This document shows, in pieces, positions 3 through 56,886 of a DNA stretch of 64,000 nucleotides. This DNA is from an uncultured bacterium. Its GTDB lineage: Bacteria; Acidobacteriota; HRBIN11; JAKEFK01. The position numbers and the translations under genes were made by a program. Under the pieces are notes generated by a model that was not told the origin of the DNA, did not search any database, and was given only the letters and a program-made list of their open reading frames with translations. The stretch lies in contig CAVYSN010000004.1 in NCBI GenBank assembly GCA_963771165.1, positions 30,114 to 94,113 of the forward strand, given 5' to 3'. Position 1 is the stretch's first letter, and every line of letters begins with the position of its first letter.

Positions 3-277
3 AACCCTGCCAAACCGATTCCAATGGCTCTTTTAATGCTTCAAAACAGTAGGTTTTTCTTCACAGAAGAGAGCAAAGGAAGCAAAGGACTTAATGAGCC
101 TGGTTGGAGTATGAAGTTGAACGCCTTGTTCCGGCGCAAGCAAGATTGATTCAAACGGCAAAATACTACCCGAAAGGGCTCAGCGGATTGCTCTACTGGT
201 TTCAGCTCTACCCGATCCACCACATTATGTTTCGTGGACTCGCAAAAGCCATCGCGAACCGCGCAAGCGCAGCGTAA
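3..277 (+). CDS. 3' end of a DUF2867-like (NAD(P)H-binding family C-terminal domain) gene entering from upstream; apparent frame change near 98
   Basis: The frame opening at 98 reads AWLEYEVERLVPAQARLIQTAKYYPKGLSGLLYWFQLYPIHHIMFRGLAKAIANRASAA*. From memory this matches the conserved DUF2867 C-terminus. The upstream part is open only in another frame. The piece is under 60 aa, so it is not in the ORF track. Confidence 0.35.
59..88. repeat. Solo 5' arm of the AGCAAAG-word hairpin family (F3); no partner arm
   Basis: ttcacagaagagagcaaaggaagcaaagg matches the left arms at 9112, 12213 and 57411. No reverse-complement arm follows. Confidence 0.5.
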
Positions 278-338
278 ACCGCCAAGTATGCAAAAAAACC
301 AATCAAAGTTCTTGGCGATTTTGGCGCTCTTGGCGGTT
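277..338. repeat. Word-hairpin element, CGCCAAG family (F8)
   Basis: aaccgccaag (277..286) pairs perfectly with cttggcggtt (329..338). The inner arms are degenerate words. It lies between the convergent stops of the DUF2867-like gene and rpsT. Confidence 0.7.
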
Positions 339-19384: not shown

Positions 19385-19475
19385 GTGTAAGAAAGGGGAT
19401 GTGGAGATGAGCTCTTTAATTTTTTACTGGAATCATTTCCTCATCTCAATTATCCCCACATCCCCCTTCTTACAC
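19385..19475. repeat. GGGGATGTGG-family hairpin element (F4)
   Basis: gtgtaagaaaggggatgtggagatgag ... ctcatctcaattatccccacatcccccttcttacac. The 5' arm contains no C. Confidence 0.85.
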
Positions 19476-19492
19476 AGAAAAGCAAACTCTTG

Positions 19493-19626: not shown

Positions 19627-21580
19627 ATGACCAAGTACTATGTAACAACTCCCATTTACTACATCAACGGACTACCACACATAGGGCATGCCTTTACGAC
19701 TGTGCTGTCCGATGCCATCGCCAGATATCACCGTTTACTGGGTCATGATGTTTTTTTCCTTACGGGAACAGACGAACATGGCCAGAAAGCCGAGAAAGCC
19801 GCCAGGGAACTGGAAATTTCACCGCAAGAATTGACCGACCGAATCGTTCCGACCTTCCGAGATTTATGGAAGCTTTTGAACATTTCAAACACGGACTTTA
19901 TTCGAACGACTGAAAAGAGACATCGCGAGGGTGTGGAAGAAATATTCCGGCGTTCTCATACCAACGGCGACATTTATCTTGGATCGTATGAAGGCTGGTA
20001 TTGCACTTACGATGAAAATTTTCTGACGGATGGACAACTGGTGGACGGAAAATGTCCCGACTGCCGGCGACCGGTGGAACGCATCCAAGAAGAAAGTTAC
20101 TTTTTCCGTCTCTCAAAATTCCAAGAACCTCTGCTGAACTTCTACAGAAAGAATCCTGATTTTGTCGTTCCCCGTTCCCGTTTCAATGAGGTCATCAGTT
20201 TCGTGCAAGGCGGCTTGCGCGATTTAAGCATTAGCCGCGTGAAGTTGAAATGGGGTATTCCGGTGCCGATCAATCCGGAACATGTGATCTATGTTTGGTT
20301 TGATGCCCTTTCCAACTACGTTACAGCCACGGGATTCCCAACCGACCAGGAAAAATACAAACGTTACTGGCCTGCTGACCTGCATGTGATCGGAAAAGAT
20401 ATTCTGCGATTTCATTGCGTCTACTGGCCGGCCTTTTTGCTATCTGCCGGCCTCCCGTTGCCGAAGCAAGCTCTGGTTCATGGATGGTGGCTGAAAGAAG
20501 ATGAAAAAATCTCCAAATCGCGCGGCAATGTTGTGGATCCGCATTCTTTGGTCAGCAATTTTGGAGTGGATGGACTTCGTTATTTCCTGATCCGCGAAGC
20601 GCCACTGGAAGGGGACAGCAATTATTCCTTCAACACAATTTTGAAACGGGTGAACAGCGATCTTGCAAACGATCTTGGAAATCTTGCCAGCAGAATCCTC
20701 ACAATGGTGGAACGCTATTCGGCAGGAAAAATTCCCGGTGTGGCTGCAACTCGTGCCCCTTTTCAAGATTCTCTCGAAAACATTGTGTCGCGAGTGCCTC
20801 AATATATCGCCGAGTTCACTCTGTCTCGTCTGCTCGCTGACATCTGGAGCATCGTAACAGCGATGAACAGATACATCGTTGAGGAACAACCGTGGAATCT
20901 CGCAAAAACGCCTGAGACCCGCGGGCGTCTGGAAGAGGTATTGTACAACAGCTGCGAAGGCCTGCGCATCATATGCAGGGTTGATCGCACCCGTCATTCC
21001 CGATTCCTCGGACTCGATCTGGGAACAGATCGGGTTGGGACGAACAGCTGCAAAAGCACGGATCGAGGATTTACAATGGGGCAGATTGCAGCCCGGAACC
21101 ACCATCGGCAAGATCACACCAATCTTTCCGCGCATCGAATTTAACCACCAAGACGCCAAAGTCACCAAGATCACACAGAAAAATCATTTAATCCCTGGCG
21201 AAAATGGCGATCTTGGCGCCATGGCGGTGAAAGAACCGGCAAAAGAAGAAAGTTCGGCGGATGCGACGATTGAAGACTTTCAAAAACTCGGATTGAAAGT
21301 GGGCGAGATTAAAAGCGCTGAAAAAATTAAAGGATCGAAGAAACTATTGAAGTTGAGCGTGGATCTCGGTTCGGAGACCCGGCAGCTTGTAGCCGGCATC
21401 GCGGAAGCTTACGCGGCGGAAGAATTGATCGGCAAACAGGTGATCGTTGTTTCCAATTTGAAGCCGACAAAAATCATGGGGGTTGAATCCAATGGAATGG
21501 TTCTGGCCGCCTCCATCGATGGAAAACCGGTACTCGCTTCCGTAACAGCAAAAGTCCCGAACGGAACGATTGTAAAATAA
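19627..21580 (+). CDS. metG: Methionine--tRNA ligase with C-terminal tRNA-binding domain; one frame break near 20972
   Basis: PIYYINGLPHIGHAFT is the HIGH region and KISKSRGNVVDP is KMSKS. The C-terminus reads KLLKLSVDLGSETRQLVAGIAEAY...VVSNLKPTKIMGVESNGMVLAA. Removing one nt at ~20972 gives ...LRIIAGLIAPVIP. Confidence 0.95.
21141..21230. repeat. CGCCAAG-family word-hairpin (F8) embedded in frame in the metG linker
   Basis: ttaaccaccaagacgccaaagtcaccaagatcacacag / ctggcgaaaatggcgatcttggcgccatggcggtga is translated as NHQDAKVTKITQKNHLIPGENGDLGAMAV. It has the same grammar as 277..338. Confidence 0.6.
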
Positions 21581-21583
21581 CGC

Positions 21584-22586
21584 ATGCGAGAGCCGAAGTA
21601 CGCGCTTGTGCTTTCAGACCTGCACTTCGGCGACTCGAGATGTTCTCTCCACTCGATGCAAATCGCACACGCTCTCGTTCAGCGGTTGAAGAATTATCAG
21701 CCCCTTGAAGAAATCTTTCTGCTGGGTGACATTCTGGATCTTCAGCTTGCCACCTGGTCACAGGCGATCGAAGGACGAATTCTGGATGGACCGGCTAAAC
21801 GGACCGTCGGCTTCCGCTACTTCTTGAATTTTCTAATTCGTGAAACCAACGCAAAGCTCATCACATACATTCCAGGCAATCATGATTATAAAATCTTTGA
21901 TTACCATTCCATTGACCGACATCTGATTCTGCCGTTGAAGCACGGCAAGAAACTTTCAGGAAAAGTTTCCTTCTTCCGAAACTTTACTCCCAGCTTTTTG
22001 CAAGGACTACTGGAATCAACAGACGCTCAATTTCGTGTCATTTATCCGCACCATATTCTGCGCGTTTCCGGCGCTCGAATTCTTCTTACACACGGCCACT
22101 ATTTCGACTCCTCTCAATCTTTTTATCAGGAAATCGCAAAGGCCTTTCCGCCTCCGGTCGAAAAAGAACAAATTCCAAAACTCACGAAAAACGTTCTTCA
22201 GCCGCGCATCCGCTTATCAAAATCTTGTCAGTGGACTCTCGATTCAGCCGCGGCTCCGAACGATTTTCAATTCCATTTACCAACCGGTCACTTCGATGAA
22301 ACAAAAGCTGGGGCACCGAAACCGGAAAACATTTCTGACCCGGGTCATGCGCCGCAACATCGAATCCTACGTGGCTTTTTGCTGTCGAGGTAAAGTGGAT
22401 GGAGTCATATTCGGCCACACACATCATCCCGGCAAAGCTTCTTTTCACGATAGTCCGATCCGCCATGTTTGGAATTCCGGAACCTTTCTGCGGGAATCAC
22501 CGAACTCACCCCCGGGAAGTTTCTTGACTCTGAATTTGAATGGATCCTCCGGGATGGAGGATGCGGTAAAAGTTCACCTGCTATAA
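21584..22586 (+). CDS. Metallophosphoesterase (calcineurin-like), one frame break near 22190
   Basis: LVLSDLHFGD, LLGDILD, IPGNHD, LLTHGH, and GVIFGHTHHPG in the second piece. Confidence 0.75.
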
Positions 22587-56110: not shown

Positions 56111-56886
56111 TGGATTTGAAGAATGTGAAGTTTGAAGCTCGCGACAGGATCGCATGGATCACAATCCACCGTCCGGAAGTCAGAAATGCTCTGGATTTGC
56201 AAACCGTGAATGAGTTGCATGCTATTTTTTCAGAATTCAATCAATCGGAAGACGTGGGTGTTGTTGTTTTGACCGGGGCAGGCGAAAAAGTCTTTGTTTC
56301 CGGAGCCGATATTCGCGATATTCAGGCGCGTAAAACAATGGATGCTTTAAAGGGAATCAATTCACGGTTATTTAAAGTCGTGGAAGATTGTGAAAAACCT
56401 GTGATTGCAGCGGTCAACGGATTTGCTTTCGGCGGCGGATGCGAGCTTGCGTTGTCCTGCGACATTCGAATCTGCAGTGATCATGCGAAGTTCGGGTTGC
56501 CTGAAGCCTCGCTCGGTATCATTCCTGCAGCCGGTGGGATGTACCGTCTGGCGCGCGTGGCCGGAATCGGGATAACGAAAGAACTGGTTCTAACCGGAGA
56601 ACCAATGGACGCGCAGCGGGCATACCAGGTCGGGCTCGTTTCGCGTGTTGTACCGCAAAATGAGCTGCTGAAAACGGCTGAACAACTTTGCCAGAAGATT
56701 CTTTCGCGCGGACCACTCGCGATCCGCTTAGCCAAACGGTCGCTGAATCTGATCACTCAGATGCCGACAGAAGCCGCCATGGCTCTGGAATCTTTCGTTC
56801 AGGGCATTCTCTTTGAATCGGAAGATAAGCAAGAAGGGACGAGCGCCTTTTTAGAAAAAAGACATCCGCATTTCAAAGGCAAATAA
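56107..56886 (+). CDS. Enoyl-CoA hydratase (crotonase)
   Basis: VVVLTGAGEKVFVSGADI, AAVNGFAFGGGCELALSCDIRI, EGTSAFLEKRHPHFKGK. Confidence 0.9.
   Translation: MMDLKNVKFEARDRIAWITIHRPEVRNALDLQTVNELHAIFSEFNQSEDVGVVVLTGAGEKVFVSGADIRDIQARKTMDALKGINSRLFKVVEDCEKPVIAAVNGFAFGGGCELALSCDIRICSDHAKFGLPEASLGIIPAAGGMYRLARVAGIGITKELVLTGEPMDAQRAYQVGLVSRVVPQNELLKTAEQLCQKILSRGPLAIRLAKRSLNLITQMPTEAAMALESFVQGILFESEDKQEGTSAFLEKRHPHFKGK

What the first reader, a model, noticed from the sequence alone, without database searches (positions are those of the whole stretch)
21141..21230. A CGCCAAG-family hairpin element sits in frame inside the metG linker
This 90-nt stretch has the word grammar of the intergenic elements. 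The 5' arm is ttaACCACCAAG ACGCCAAAG TCACCAAG ATCACACAG, followed by an AT-rich loop. The 3' arm is ctggcga aaatggcga tcttggcg ccatggcggtga. The termini are of the TTAAC/GGCGGT type, as in copy 277..338.

It lies between the MetRS catalytic body (...IFPRIEF) and the C-terminal tRNA-binding domain (...IEDFQKLGLKVGEI). It is translated as 30 extra residues, NHQDAKVTKITQKNHLIPGENGDLGAMAVK, without a stop.

This implies either that the elements can insert into tolerant coding linkers and persist, or that such linkers are where they originate.
Basis: seen in the sequence. Interest (0 to 1): 0.65.

Follow-up and report, generated by a model that had tools for sequence, protein, structure and literature searches.

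The report
Selfish hairpin repeat inside metG linker
An 87-base copy of a hairpin-forming repeat that litters the spaces between genes in this soil bacterium (Acidobacteriota) sits in frame in the flexible linker of its only methionyl-tRNA synthetase gene and adds 29 amino acids, which resembles the "selfish DNA in coding genes" long known from Rickettsia.

Summary
Window 21143..21229 is a full-length member of a repeat family with about 70 copies (AACCGCCAAG...CTTGGCGGTT; four 8-9-nt words per arm; AT-rich loop). A covariance model built only from 37 other copies hits it end to end at 71.5 bits, E 8e-18, the best hit in the window.

It is 87 nt (29 codons) with no stop. It lies between the anticodon-binding domain and the C-terminal tRNA-binding domain of metG, in a stretch AlphaFold predicts as disordered. 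Two same-genus genomes carry the repeat family but lack it in metG. So do all other relatives examined, and no database protein shares the residues.

The reading "elements insert into tolerant linkers and persist" is supported. "Linkers are where they originate" is not.

Two further in-frame palindrome insertions occur in the same genome:
- a 66-nt sister-family hairpin (22 aa) in an alpha-2-macroglobulin-like gene;
- a REP doublet in a CheW-like gene.

In a same-genus genome the CGCCAAG arms enclose a GxxExxY nuclease gene, so the 87-nt copies look like gene-less derivatives of that cassette.

metG also shows a +1 frameshift at 20974-20976. Five of 12 genes checked are split in the same way, so this is almost certainly assembly error. 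Kind: RPE-like, new variant.

The parts
19627..21580 (+). metG (methionyl-tRNA synthetase). It is the only copy in the assembly. It is read in two frames because of one extra base at 20974-20976.
   Evidence: ORFs 19627..21144 and 20879..21580. tblastn with the same-genus MetRS gives frame +1 up to 20976 and frame +2 from 20975, at 81% and 66% identity. Pfam on the rebuilt 650-aa protein: tRNA-synt_1g, Anticodon_3 at 381-508, tRNA_bind at 556-647. No second metG was found by tblastn.
20974..20976 (+). Apparent +1 frameshift: one extra base in ATCATA[T]GCAGGG. Most likely an assembly indel error.
   Evidence: Relatives read LRIIAGL(I/V)APVIP straight across the junction. Five of 12 genes compared with same-genus orthologs are split between frames in this assembly.
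21143..21229 (+). 87-nt CGCCAAG-family word-hairpin element, in frame. It encodes NHQDAKVTKITQKNHLIPGENGDLGAMAV, residues 506-534 of the rebuilt MetRS.
   Evidence: R1 hit at 71.5 bits, E 8.4e-18, model positions 1-87 of 87, no indel. nhmmer E 1.6e-13. Nearest-neighbour identity is 78%, equal to the family median.
21143..21178 (+). 5' arm, four words: AACCACCAAG ACGCCAAAG TCACCAAG ATCACACAG.
   Evidence: Read directly and aligned to the model consensus AACCGCCAaGACGCCAAgaucGCCAAGuuCgCCAAg.
21179..21193 (+). AT-rich loop AAAAATCATTTAATC. Its TAA is out of frame.
21194..21229 (+). 3' arm, four words: CCTGGCGA AAATGGCGA TCTTGGCG CCATGGCGGTG.
21230..21292 (+). Remaining native linker (KEPAKEESSADAT...). 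It aligns with the distal half of the same-genus linkers (QKPAEKKQDDSSHAT).
21293..21568 (+). C-terminal Trbp111-like tRNA-binding (OB-fold) domain.
   Evidence: Pfam tRNA_bind E 1e-27. PDB matches 1pyb, 1mkh and 8vtz. AlphaFold pLDDT is about 90.
277..338 (.). Intergenic, shortened copy of the same family in the window.
   Evidence: R1 at 44.6 bits, E 2.5e-10.

Best explanation
Window 21143..21229 is a gene-less copy of a mobile palindromic repeat. It belongs to the CGCCAAG family of the CRCNRAG 'word-hairpin' superfamily that fills intergenic spacers in this Acidobacteriota genome. After this lineage split from its sequenced congeners, the copy landed in the linker that joins the MetRS anticodon-binding domain to its appended tRNA-binding domain.

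The copy is 87 nt (29 codons) and has no stop in the frame it landed in, so it is translated as 29 extra linker residues. The linker is disordered and naturally variable in length, so the enzyme tolerates it and the copy persists as a passenger.

Shown:
- family membership;
- in-frame, stop-free reading;
- position between the two domains;
- absence from all relatives found;
- recurrence of such insertions in this genome;
- identical arms around a GxxExxY nuclease gene in a congener.

Inferred:
- that it arrived by transposition-like spread, probably mobilised in trans by a GxxExxY PD-(D/E)XK nuclease cassette;
- that the protein is made and active;
- that the upstream frameshift is an assembly error.
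For: 1. Membership. R1, trained without this copy, scores it 71.5 bits, E 8.4e-18, full length with no indel. That falls within the range of bona fide copies. Divergence from its nearest copy is 78%, equal to the family median.

2. Lineage specificity. Same-genus MetRS linkers read APAAGSAAQKTDQKQAHEKQAETVH and APAAETVPQKPAEKKQDDSSH. The ten closest proteins among 5.8 billion have linkers of 19-28 aa, none with these residues. A 30-sequence alignment shows the same. R1 finds nothing in the metG linkers of 15 relatives' loci. The peptide patterns EFNHQDAK and MAVKEPAK pulled in no relative above 61% identity.

3. The family predates the insertion. There are at least 54 loci in same-genus G002, with weaker matches in family- and class-level relatives.

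4. A tolerant site. Anticodon_3 ends at residue 508 and tRNA_bind starts at 556. Residues 59-94 of the C-terminal fragment have pLDDT below 50 and are coil. Linker length varies from 21 to 43 aa in the phylum.

5. No special adaptation is needed. 22% of copy x orientation x frame combinations are multiples of 3 and stop-free. Intergenic copies would encode look-alike peptides, for example YRQDAKDTKFSKKNTYDLLGNIGGLGAMAV.

6. Recurrence. A 66-nt sister-family hairpin makes a clean 22-aa insertion in an alpha-2-macroglobulin-like gene, absent from 6 homologs. A REP doublet sits in a CheW-like domain and is absent from 3 orthologs.

7. Cassette link. In G002 the layout is AACCGCCAAG ACGCCAAG GCGCCAAG GCGCCAAG - RBS - GxxExxY ORF - CTTGGCG CCTTGGCG CCTTGGCGGTT. 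Two GxxExxY genes in this genome are bracketed by sister-family arms.

8. The gene is not decaying. It is the only metG. Both halves are well conserved. Frameshifts occur in 5 of 12 genes checked.
Against: - The insertion is therefore inferred from congeners at about 70-80% protein identity.
- Removing the element leaves a 12-aa linker, shorter than in any close relative (19-28 aa). The event was therefore not a simple clean insertion into a congener-like linker. A deletion accompanied or followed it, or the ancestral linker differed.
- The hairpin is weaker than most copies: -27.6 against a family median of -37.2 kcal/mol.
- No target-site duplication marks the event.
- metG is frameshifted in the assembly, so intactness of the gene is inferred, not seen.
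- The genome is only 73% complete, so a second metG cannot be excluded.
- Translation and activity are untested.
Confidence: 0.85

Rival explanations
1. This metG copy is a pseudogene. The frameshift at 20974-20976 is real, so the element sits in dead DNA and says nothing about tolerance in a working protein.
For: The assembly shows two overlapping frames. The genome is 73% complete, so another metG could be missing from it.
Against: - No other metG was found, and relatives carry one each.
- Both halves are conserved, at 81% and about 90% identity in the domains, with no stops or other lesions.
- The element itself is stop-free and a multiple of 3.
- Five of 12 genes checked, including the next gene downstream, have the same kind of single-base frame switch. 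That is the signature of indel errors in a long-read assembly.
Confidence: 0.07
2. The hairpin arose in situ: a repetitive linker sequence drifted into this shape, or linkers are the birthplace of the family.
For: Linkers are low-complexity and fast-evolving. The remaining native linker is unusually short.
Against: - A full-length, indel-free match to a model trained on other copies, E 8e-18.
- Termini and the four-word architecture are identical to about 70 dispersed copies.
- The family exists in congeners whose metG linkers lack it.
- The same arms bracket a nuclease gene in G002.
- The coded residues (N, H, I, L, G) are unlike the E/P/A/K/Q composition of related linkers.
Confidence: 0.03
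3. Assembly artefact: a repeat copy was spliced into metG by misassembly of an error-prone long-read MAG.
For: The assembly has a high indel rate, and the repeat is dispersed.
Against: - Both flanks belong to the same gene, in the right order and in the same frame.
- An 87-nt repeat is far shorter than long reads.
- This copy is unique in sequence (78% to its nearest relative), so it cannot have been copied in from another locus.
- The two other in-frame insertions are likewise unique.
Confidence: 0.02
4. The insert has been co-opted. It acts either as an mRNA hairpin that tunes translation of the C-terminal domain or as a functional spacer peptide.
For: It persists in an essential gene. The hairpin is retained at about -28 kcal/mol. 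The native linker is shortened, as if to compensate.
Against: - It is present in one species only.
- Nothing about the peptide is conserved beyond what the DNA words dictate.
- There is no Rfam match.
- The hairpin is weaker than most family members.
Confidence: 0.03

Closest known systems
Rickettsia palindromic elements (RPE; Ogata et al. 2000 Science 290:347; Ogata et al. 2002 Genome Res 12:808), as summarised in PMC10969869
   Same: - A dispersed palindromic repeat family found both between genes and in frame inside unrelated housekeeping genes.
- The inserts add a few dozen residues without stops.
- Orthologs lack the insert.
- Insertion sites are compatible with folding.
- Several families do this in one genome.
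   Different: - No sequence relationship.
- The element here is 87 nt against about 100-150 nt for RPEs.
- The arms here are tandem 8-9-nt words.
- The host is a free-living soil Acidobacteriota, not a reduced intracellular alphaproteobacterium.
- Only about 1 of 70 copies of this family is intragenic, against nearly half for some RPE families.
- A candidate partner gene (GxxExxY nuclease) is visible here.
Bacterial MITEs that make in-frame fusions (intragenic ERIC, BOX, Anabaena MITEs; review PMC10969869)
   Same: A small non-autonomous inverted-repeat element, AT-rich in the middle, that occasionally lies inside ORFs as an in-frame fusion.
   Different: There is no target-site duplication. 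No IS transposase shares its ends. The partner found is a PD-(D/E)XK-type GxxExxY gene.
REP / REPIN elements with RAYT transposases (Bertels & Rainey 2011; Di Nocera et al. 2013, PMC3733652)
   Same: Intergenic hairpin repeats without a target-site duplication. They are presumably mobilised in trans by a single-copy gene flanked by the same repeats.
   Different: The element has no GTAG or CGTC head. It is one 87-nt hairpin of tandem words, not a 20-40-nt REP or a doublet. The flanked gene is not a RAYT. A true GTAG-REP family coexists in this genome, and one of its doublets is itself in frame in a CheW-like gene.
GxxExxY (TIGR04256) cassettes bracketed by inverted CRCNRAG heptamer arrays. These are known only from earlier notes of this scan. 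I found no characterisation of the family in the library searched.
   Same: Identical termini and words. The G002 cassette has AACCGCCAAG x4 ... CTTGGCG x3 GGTT around the gene. Cassettes in this genome carry sister words.
   Different: The metG copy has a 15-nt loop where the roughly 370-nt gene would be.

Membership tests
CGCCAAG word-hairpin family of this genome (model R1) | Scores with a model built from other copies, full length | tested here: met
   71.5 bits, E 8.4e-18, positions 1-87 of 87, no indel. Training copies score 45-85 bits.
CGCCAAG word-hairpin family of this genome (model R1) | Termini AACCGCCAAG / CTTGGCGGTT, four 8-9-nt words per arm, AT-rich loop, 80-93 nt | tested here: met
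   Termini AACCACCAAG and CATGGCGGTG, with 1 and 2 mismatches. Four words on each arm, a 15-nt loop that is 80% A+T, and a length of 87 nt.
CGCCAAG word-hairpin family of this genome (model R1) | Arms complementary (stable hairpin) | tested here: met
   -27.6 kcal/mol. This is inside the family range of -22.6 to -49.1 but in the weakest quarter.
Gene-less derivative of a GxxExxY nuclease cassette | The same terminal words bracket a GxxExxY gene somewhere | tested here: met
   G002 locus L226 and G004 locus L225. Both genes are degraded or frameshifted. No CGCCAAG-armed cassette was found in this genome, which is 73% complete.
Gene-less derivative of a GxxExxY nuclease cassette | The nuclease recognises or mobilises the arms | not testable with these tools
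   No biochemical data. The library holds 3 papers with the term GxxExxY; none of those listed carries it in title or abstract, and I did not read them.
RPE-type in-frame palindromic insert (kind, not homology) | A copy of a dispersed palindromic repeat lies inside an ORF, in frame and without a stop | tested here: met
RPE-type in-frame palindromic insert (kind, not homology) | The insert is absent from orthologs | tested here: met
RPE-type in-frame palindromic insert (kind, not homology) | Sequence homology to Rickettsia RPE families | not tested
   No RPE sequences were compared. Rfam gave no hit on the element. The word architecture and the host phylum make homology very unlikely.
Classical MITE | Target-site duplication flanking terminal inverted repeats | tested here: not met
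   Direct-repeat flanks of 2, 3 and 4 nt occur in 2, 0 and 1 of 50 copies, which is chance level. The metG flanks are TTT and AAAGAA.
REP/REPIN-RAYT | GTAG or CGTC head, a 20-40-nt REP unit, and flanks a RAYT gene | tested here: not met
   The element has no GTAG or CGTC head and is a single 87-nt hairpin. The flanked gene found is GxxExxY. RAYT itself was not searched for.

The most novel reading that the evidence does not exclude
CRCNRAG word-hairpins, together with their GxxExxY nuclease cassettes, form an undescribed class of mobile elements. They insert without a target duplication at T-rich^A-rich sites. Both in-frame copies here sit at TTT | element | AAAGA and are read in the same frame, with AAC as the first codon. 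Like RPEs, they would repeatedly seed new surface or linker peptides in essential proteins, but in free-living soil bacteria. That would make protein-coding palindromes a general bacterial phenomenon rather than a Rickettsia peculiarity.
Probability: 0.35. Interest if true: 0.7.

Novelty: new variant of a known kind. Interest (0 to 1): 0.5.

Why it matters
In-frame colonisation of housekeeping genes by palindromic selfish DNA is textbook only for Rickettsia, where it was described as a unique feature. Here an unrelated repeat superfamily does the same in a free-living Acidobacteriota. It is found in an aminoacyl-tRNA synthetase linker and in an alpha-2-macroglobulin-like gene, and a REP doublet sits in a CheW-like domain.

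This gives:
- natural experiments on how much extra peptide such sites tolerate;
- a caution for annotators, because lineage-specific inserts in conserved proteins may be repeat copies;
- a concrete handle on the uncharacterised GxxExxY protein family, which is the likely mobilising nuclease because its gene is bracketed by the same arms.

Tried and rejected
I could not test the frameshift, the presence of the element in reads, or empty-site polymorphism.
- RNAalifold on the 37-copy alignment recovered only the 8 terminal pairs, because the inner words do not align column-wise. R1 is therefore largely a sequence model.
- An ungapped inverted-repeat scan of the genome missed the metG copy. It did reveal the CheW case.
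- Seven long stop-to-stop ORFs span other family copies. Five of them were scanned against Pfam and had no hit, so I judged them non-coding. One other copy lies in the tail of an MFS transporter ORF, after the MFS_1 domain. I did not resolve that case.
- Six word-scan hits inside real genes were chance word clusters without a hairpin or loop.
- No frame preference was seen: 47%, 45% and 53% of copies are open in frames 0, 1 and 2.
- Programmed frameshifting at 20974-20976 was considered and rejected. There is no slippery or stop context, and frame switches are common in this assembly.
- Genome and metagenome contig scans found no closer metG than about 61% identity in the C-terminal part.
- Ogata 2002 (PMC186582) is not held. 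RPE facts are taken from the review PMC10969869.

Full report
**What is there.** The element is AACCACCAAG ACGCCAAAG TCACCAAG ATCACACAG, then a 15-nt AT-rich loop, then CCTGGCGA AAATGGCGA TCTTGGCG CCATGGCGGTG, at 21143..21229. Taken alone it is an imperfect hairpin of -27.9 kcal/mol with z = -2.4 against dinucleotide shuffles; 3 of 200 shuffles fold as well. On folding alone the case would be weak.

**The family is real and this is a member.** The window lies in a 4.46-Mb, 22-contig genome with 48.8% G+C. A termini search (AACCGCCAAG ... CTTGGCGGTT, at most 1 mismatch each) found dozens of copies of 80-93 nt. Each has four 8-9-nt words per arm and an AT-rich loop.

I aligned 37 full-length copies. 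The metG copy was not picked up, because its right end has two mismatches. From that alignment I built covariance model R1. With filters off, R1's best hit in the whole 64-kb window is 21143..21229: 71.5 bits, E 8.4e-18, all 87 model positions, no indel.

Genome-wide, the metG copy ranks about 29th of roughly 70 loci, inside the score range of the training copies. nhmmer gives 73 loci and E 1.6e-13 for this one. Its identity to the nearest other copy is 78%, equal to the family's median nearest-neighbour identity. Its hairpin (-27.6 kcal/mol) is in the weakest quarter of the family, whose median is -37.2. Rfam has nothing for it.

**Where it sits in the protein.** The element is 87 nt (29 codons) and reads NHQDAKVTKITQKNHLIPGENGDLGAMAV. 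It is in frame with ...GKITPIFPRIEF before it and KEPAKEESSADATIEDFQKLGLKVGEI... after it.

On the rebuilt 650-aa MetRS, Pfam places Anticodon_3 at 381-508 and tRNA_bind at 556-647. The element encodes residues 506-534. The C-terminal domain matches Trbp111 (1pyb) and MetRS C-terminal domains (1mkh, 8vtz).

I ran AlphaFold2 on the C-terminal 201 residues with a 30-sequence alignment. It gives a confident OB-fold domain, and pLDDT below 50 with no secondary structure for residues 59-94. That stretch covers most of the element-coded residues (57-85) and the rest of the linker. From established knowledge of E. coli MetRS, the appended C-terminal domain can be removed with retention of activity, so a longer tether is plausibly harmless. 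I did not test this here.

**Lineage specificity.** The organism is an uncultured Acidobacteriota; the nearest named records are MFD MAGs and Vicinamibacteria or Thermoanaerobaculia MAGs.
- Both same-genus genomes have short, unrelated linkers: APAAGSAAQKTDQKQAHEKQAETVH and APAAETVPQKPAEKKQDDSSH.
- Family-level relatives likewise lack the insert.
- A search of 5.8 billion proteins found nothing closer than 71% identity in this region. The ten closest have linkers of 19-28 aa rich in E, P, A, K and Q, and none has the element's residues.
- A 30-sequence alignment shows a hypervariable linker with no shared insert.
- R1 finds no hit in the metG linkers of 15 relatives' loci.

The family itself is older than the insertion. 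There are at least 54 loci in same-genus G002, with weaker matches in family- and class-level relatives. An insertion in this lineage is therefore the parsimonious reading, and origin in the linker is not.

One wrinkle remains. Without the element the linker would be only 12 aa (F + KEPAKEESSAD), shorter than in any close relative. The distal part aligns with the congeners' ...QKPAEKKQDDSSH, while their proximal APAAETVP has no counterpart. A small deletion therefore accompanied or followed the insertion, or the ancestral linker differed.

**Is an in-frame landing surprising?** No. Arms made of CGCCAAG/CTTGGCG words have no stop in any frame, so only the loop can close a frame. Across 50 copies, 51% of the six frames are open, and 22% of copy x orientation x frame combinations are both open and a multiple of 3. 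No frame is favoured. Intergenic copies read in the same frame would give very similar peptides, for example YRQDAKDTKFSKKNTYDLLGNIGGLGAMAV. The peptide is thus a by-product of the DNA words. Flanks show no target-site duplication.

**Other copies in coding sequence.** Within this family, metG is the only copy inside a Pfam-supported gene interior. Seven other long spanning ORFs were found. Five of them were scanned and had no Pfam hit, and one copy lies in the tail of an MFS transporter ORF.

A scan for CRCNRAG words across the genome found a second clear case. C9:56692-56757 (minus strand) reads AACCACGGAG AGCACGGAG AACACGGAG ... CTCTGCG GTCTCTGCGTTA. It is 66 nt and encodes NHGEHGEHGEKISSSNSAVSAL inside a 1947-aa alpha-2-macroglobulin-like ORF. 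Six homologs, including the genome's own paralog, show a clean 22-aa gap exactly there.

A third case involves a different repeat. A GTAG-headed REP doublet (C11:85563-85627) is read through in a CheW-like domain (Pfam CheW, one stretch across it). Three orthologs lack about 17 residues at that loop.

Both word-hairpin insertions have the flanks TTT | element | AAAGA and the same reading frame. Family flanks are T-rich upstream and A-rich downstream. That hints at a target preference, but n = 2.

**Likely source of mobility.** I followed a lead from earlier notes of this scan and tested it here. TIGR04256 (GxxExxY, PD-(D/E)XK-like) genes in this genome are bracketed by inverted arrays of sister words: CACGGAG at C4:152173-152610, and CGCAGAG at C14:259950-260350.

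In same-genus G002 a cassette reads AACCGCCAAG ACGCCAAG GCGCCAAG GCGCCAAG AGGAGG..ATG [GxxExxY ORF, frameshifted] TAAATCTTGGCG CCTTGGCG CCTTGGCGGTT. G004 has the same arms around a decayed gene. These are exactly the termini of the 87-nt family.

The 87-nt copies therefore look like gene-less derivatives, MITE-like in logic, of that cassette. That the nuclease moves them is inference. The library holds 3 papers with the term GxxExxY; none of those listed carries it in title or abstract, and I did not read them.

**The frameshift.** metG is split. It runs in frame +1 up to 20976 and in frame +2 from 20975, consistent with one extra base in ATCATA[T]GCAGGG. Relatives read LRIIAGLIAPVIP straight through.
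- It is the only metG in the assembly, though the genome is 73% complete.
- Both halves are strongly conserved.
- The next gene (21584..22586) is split in the same way.
- Of 12 distinct genes compared with same-genus orthologs, 5 are split between frames, roughly one switch per 3 kb.

This is the pattern of indel errors in a long-read MAG, not of gene decay.

**Comparison with what is known.** The closest known phenomenon is the Rickettsia palindromic elements. These are dispersed palindromes inserted in frame in many unrelated genes. They add peptides at positions compatible with the fold and are absent from orthologs (Ogata 2000 and 2002, as summarised in PMC10969869). That review also notes that in-frame fusions by intragenic MITEs are not unusual.

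The present element works like an RPE but is not a member of that family. It has a different architecture, a different host and no sequence relationship. It fails the classical MITE test (no target-site duplication) and the REP test (no GTAG or CGTC head, not a 20-40-nt unit). I therefore file it as a new variant of a known kind.

**Verdict.** The insertion reading is supported and the origin reading is not. Interest is moderate. The individual event is an ordinary consequence of a very active repeat superfamily. The recurrence of three in-frame palindrome insertions in a free-living bacterium, and the link to an uncharacterised nuclease family, are worth follow-up.

Noticed in passing
genome contig C9:56692-56757, minus strand (outside the window): A 66-nt word-hairpin of the sister family (CACGGAG words on one arm, CTCTGCG on the other) lies in frame in a 1947-aa alpha-2-macroglobulin-like ORF. 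It adds NHGEHGEHGEKISSSNSAVSAL. Six homologs, including the genome's own paralog, show a clean 22-aa gap. This copy also reads YGSTEQ where the homologs have the thioester motif YGCTEQ.
   Followed up: yes
genome contig C11:85563-85627 (outside the window): A GTAG-headed REP doublet (ACGGGCGCGATGAATCGCGCCCCTAC ... GTAGGGGCGCCATTTATGGCGCCCGT) is read through inside a CheW-like domain. Orthologs in G001, G003 and G005 lack about 17 residues at that loop.
   Followed up: partly
window 20974-20976 and 22164-22201; genome C1:35859-35872, C12:229492-229498, C4:117128-117141: Single-base frame switches split 5 of 12 genes compared with same-genus orthologs. They include metG and the metallophosphoesterase-like gene right after it (21584..22586). 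The assembly seems to carry about one indel error per 3 kb, so any 'pseudogene' or 'frameshift' call in this genome needs reads.
   Followed up: partly
genome C4:152173-152610 and C14:259950-260350 (outside the window); loci L226 (G002) and L225 (G004): GxxExxY (TIGR04256) genes are bracketed by inverted arrays of CRCNRAG words. The last word and an AGGAGG-like stretch sit just before the ATG. Across relatives, most of the GxxExxY loci inspected show the same layout with private words such as CACGAAG, CACAGAT, CGCCGAG and CACAGAG.
   Followed up: partly
window 21140-21142 / 21230-21234 and C9:56689-56691 / 56758-56762: Both in-frame word-hairpin insertions have the same flanks (TTT before, AAAGA after) and the same reading frame (AAC as first codon). 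Family flanks are T-rich upstream and A-rich downstream. This may be a target preference, with n = 2.
   Followed up: partly
genome C19:90975-91037 (outside the window): A shortened CGCCAAG-family copy lies in the C-terminal tail of an MFS transporter ORF, after the MFS_1 domain, and the frame runs on for 49 more codons. It may have replaced the gene's original end.
   Followed up: no
genome C16:97183-97323 (outside the window): A perfect 64-bp-arm palindrome with a 13-nt loop lies inside a 403-aa membrane-protein ORF. It could be a real inverted duplication or a long-read assembly artefact.
   Followed up: no
window 19385-19476: The hairpin element upstream of metG draws sub-threshold Rfam hits to plant and animal microRNA precursor families (31 bits against a gathering score of 96). 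This is chance resemblance between long hairpins.
   Followed up: no
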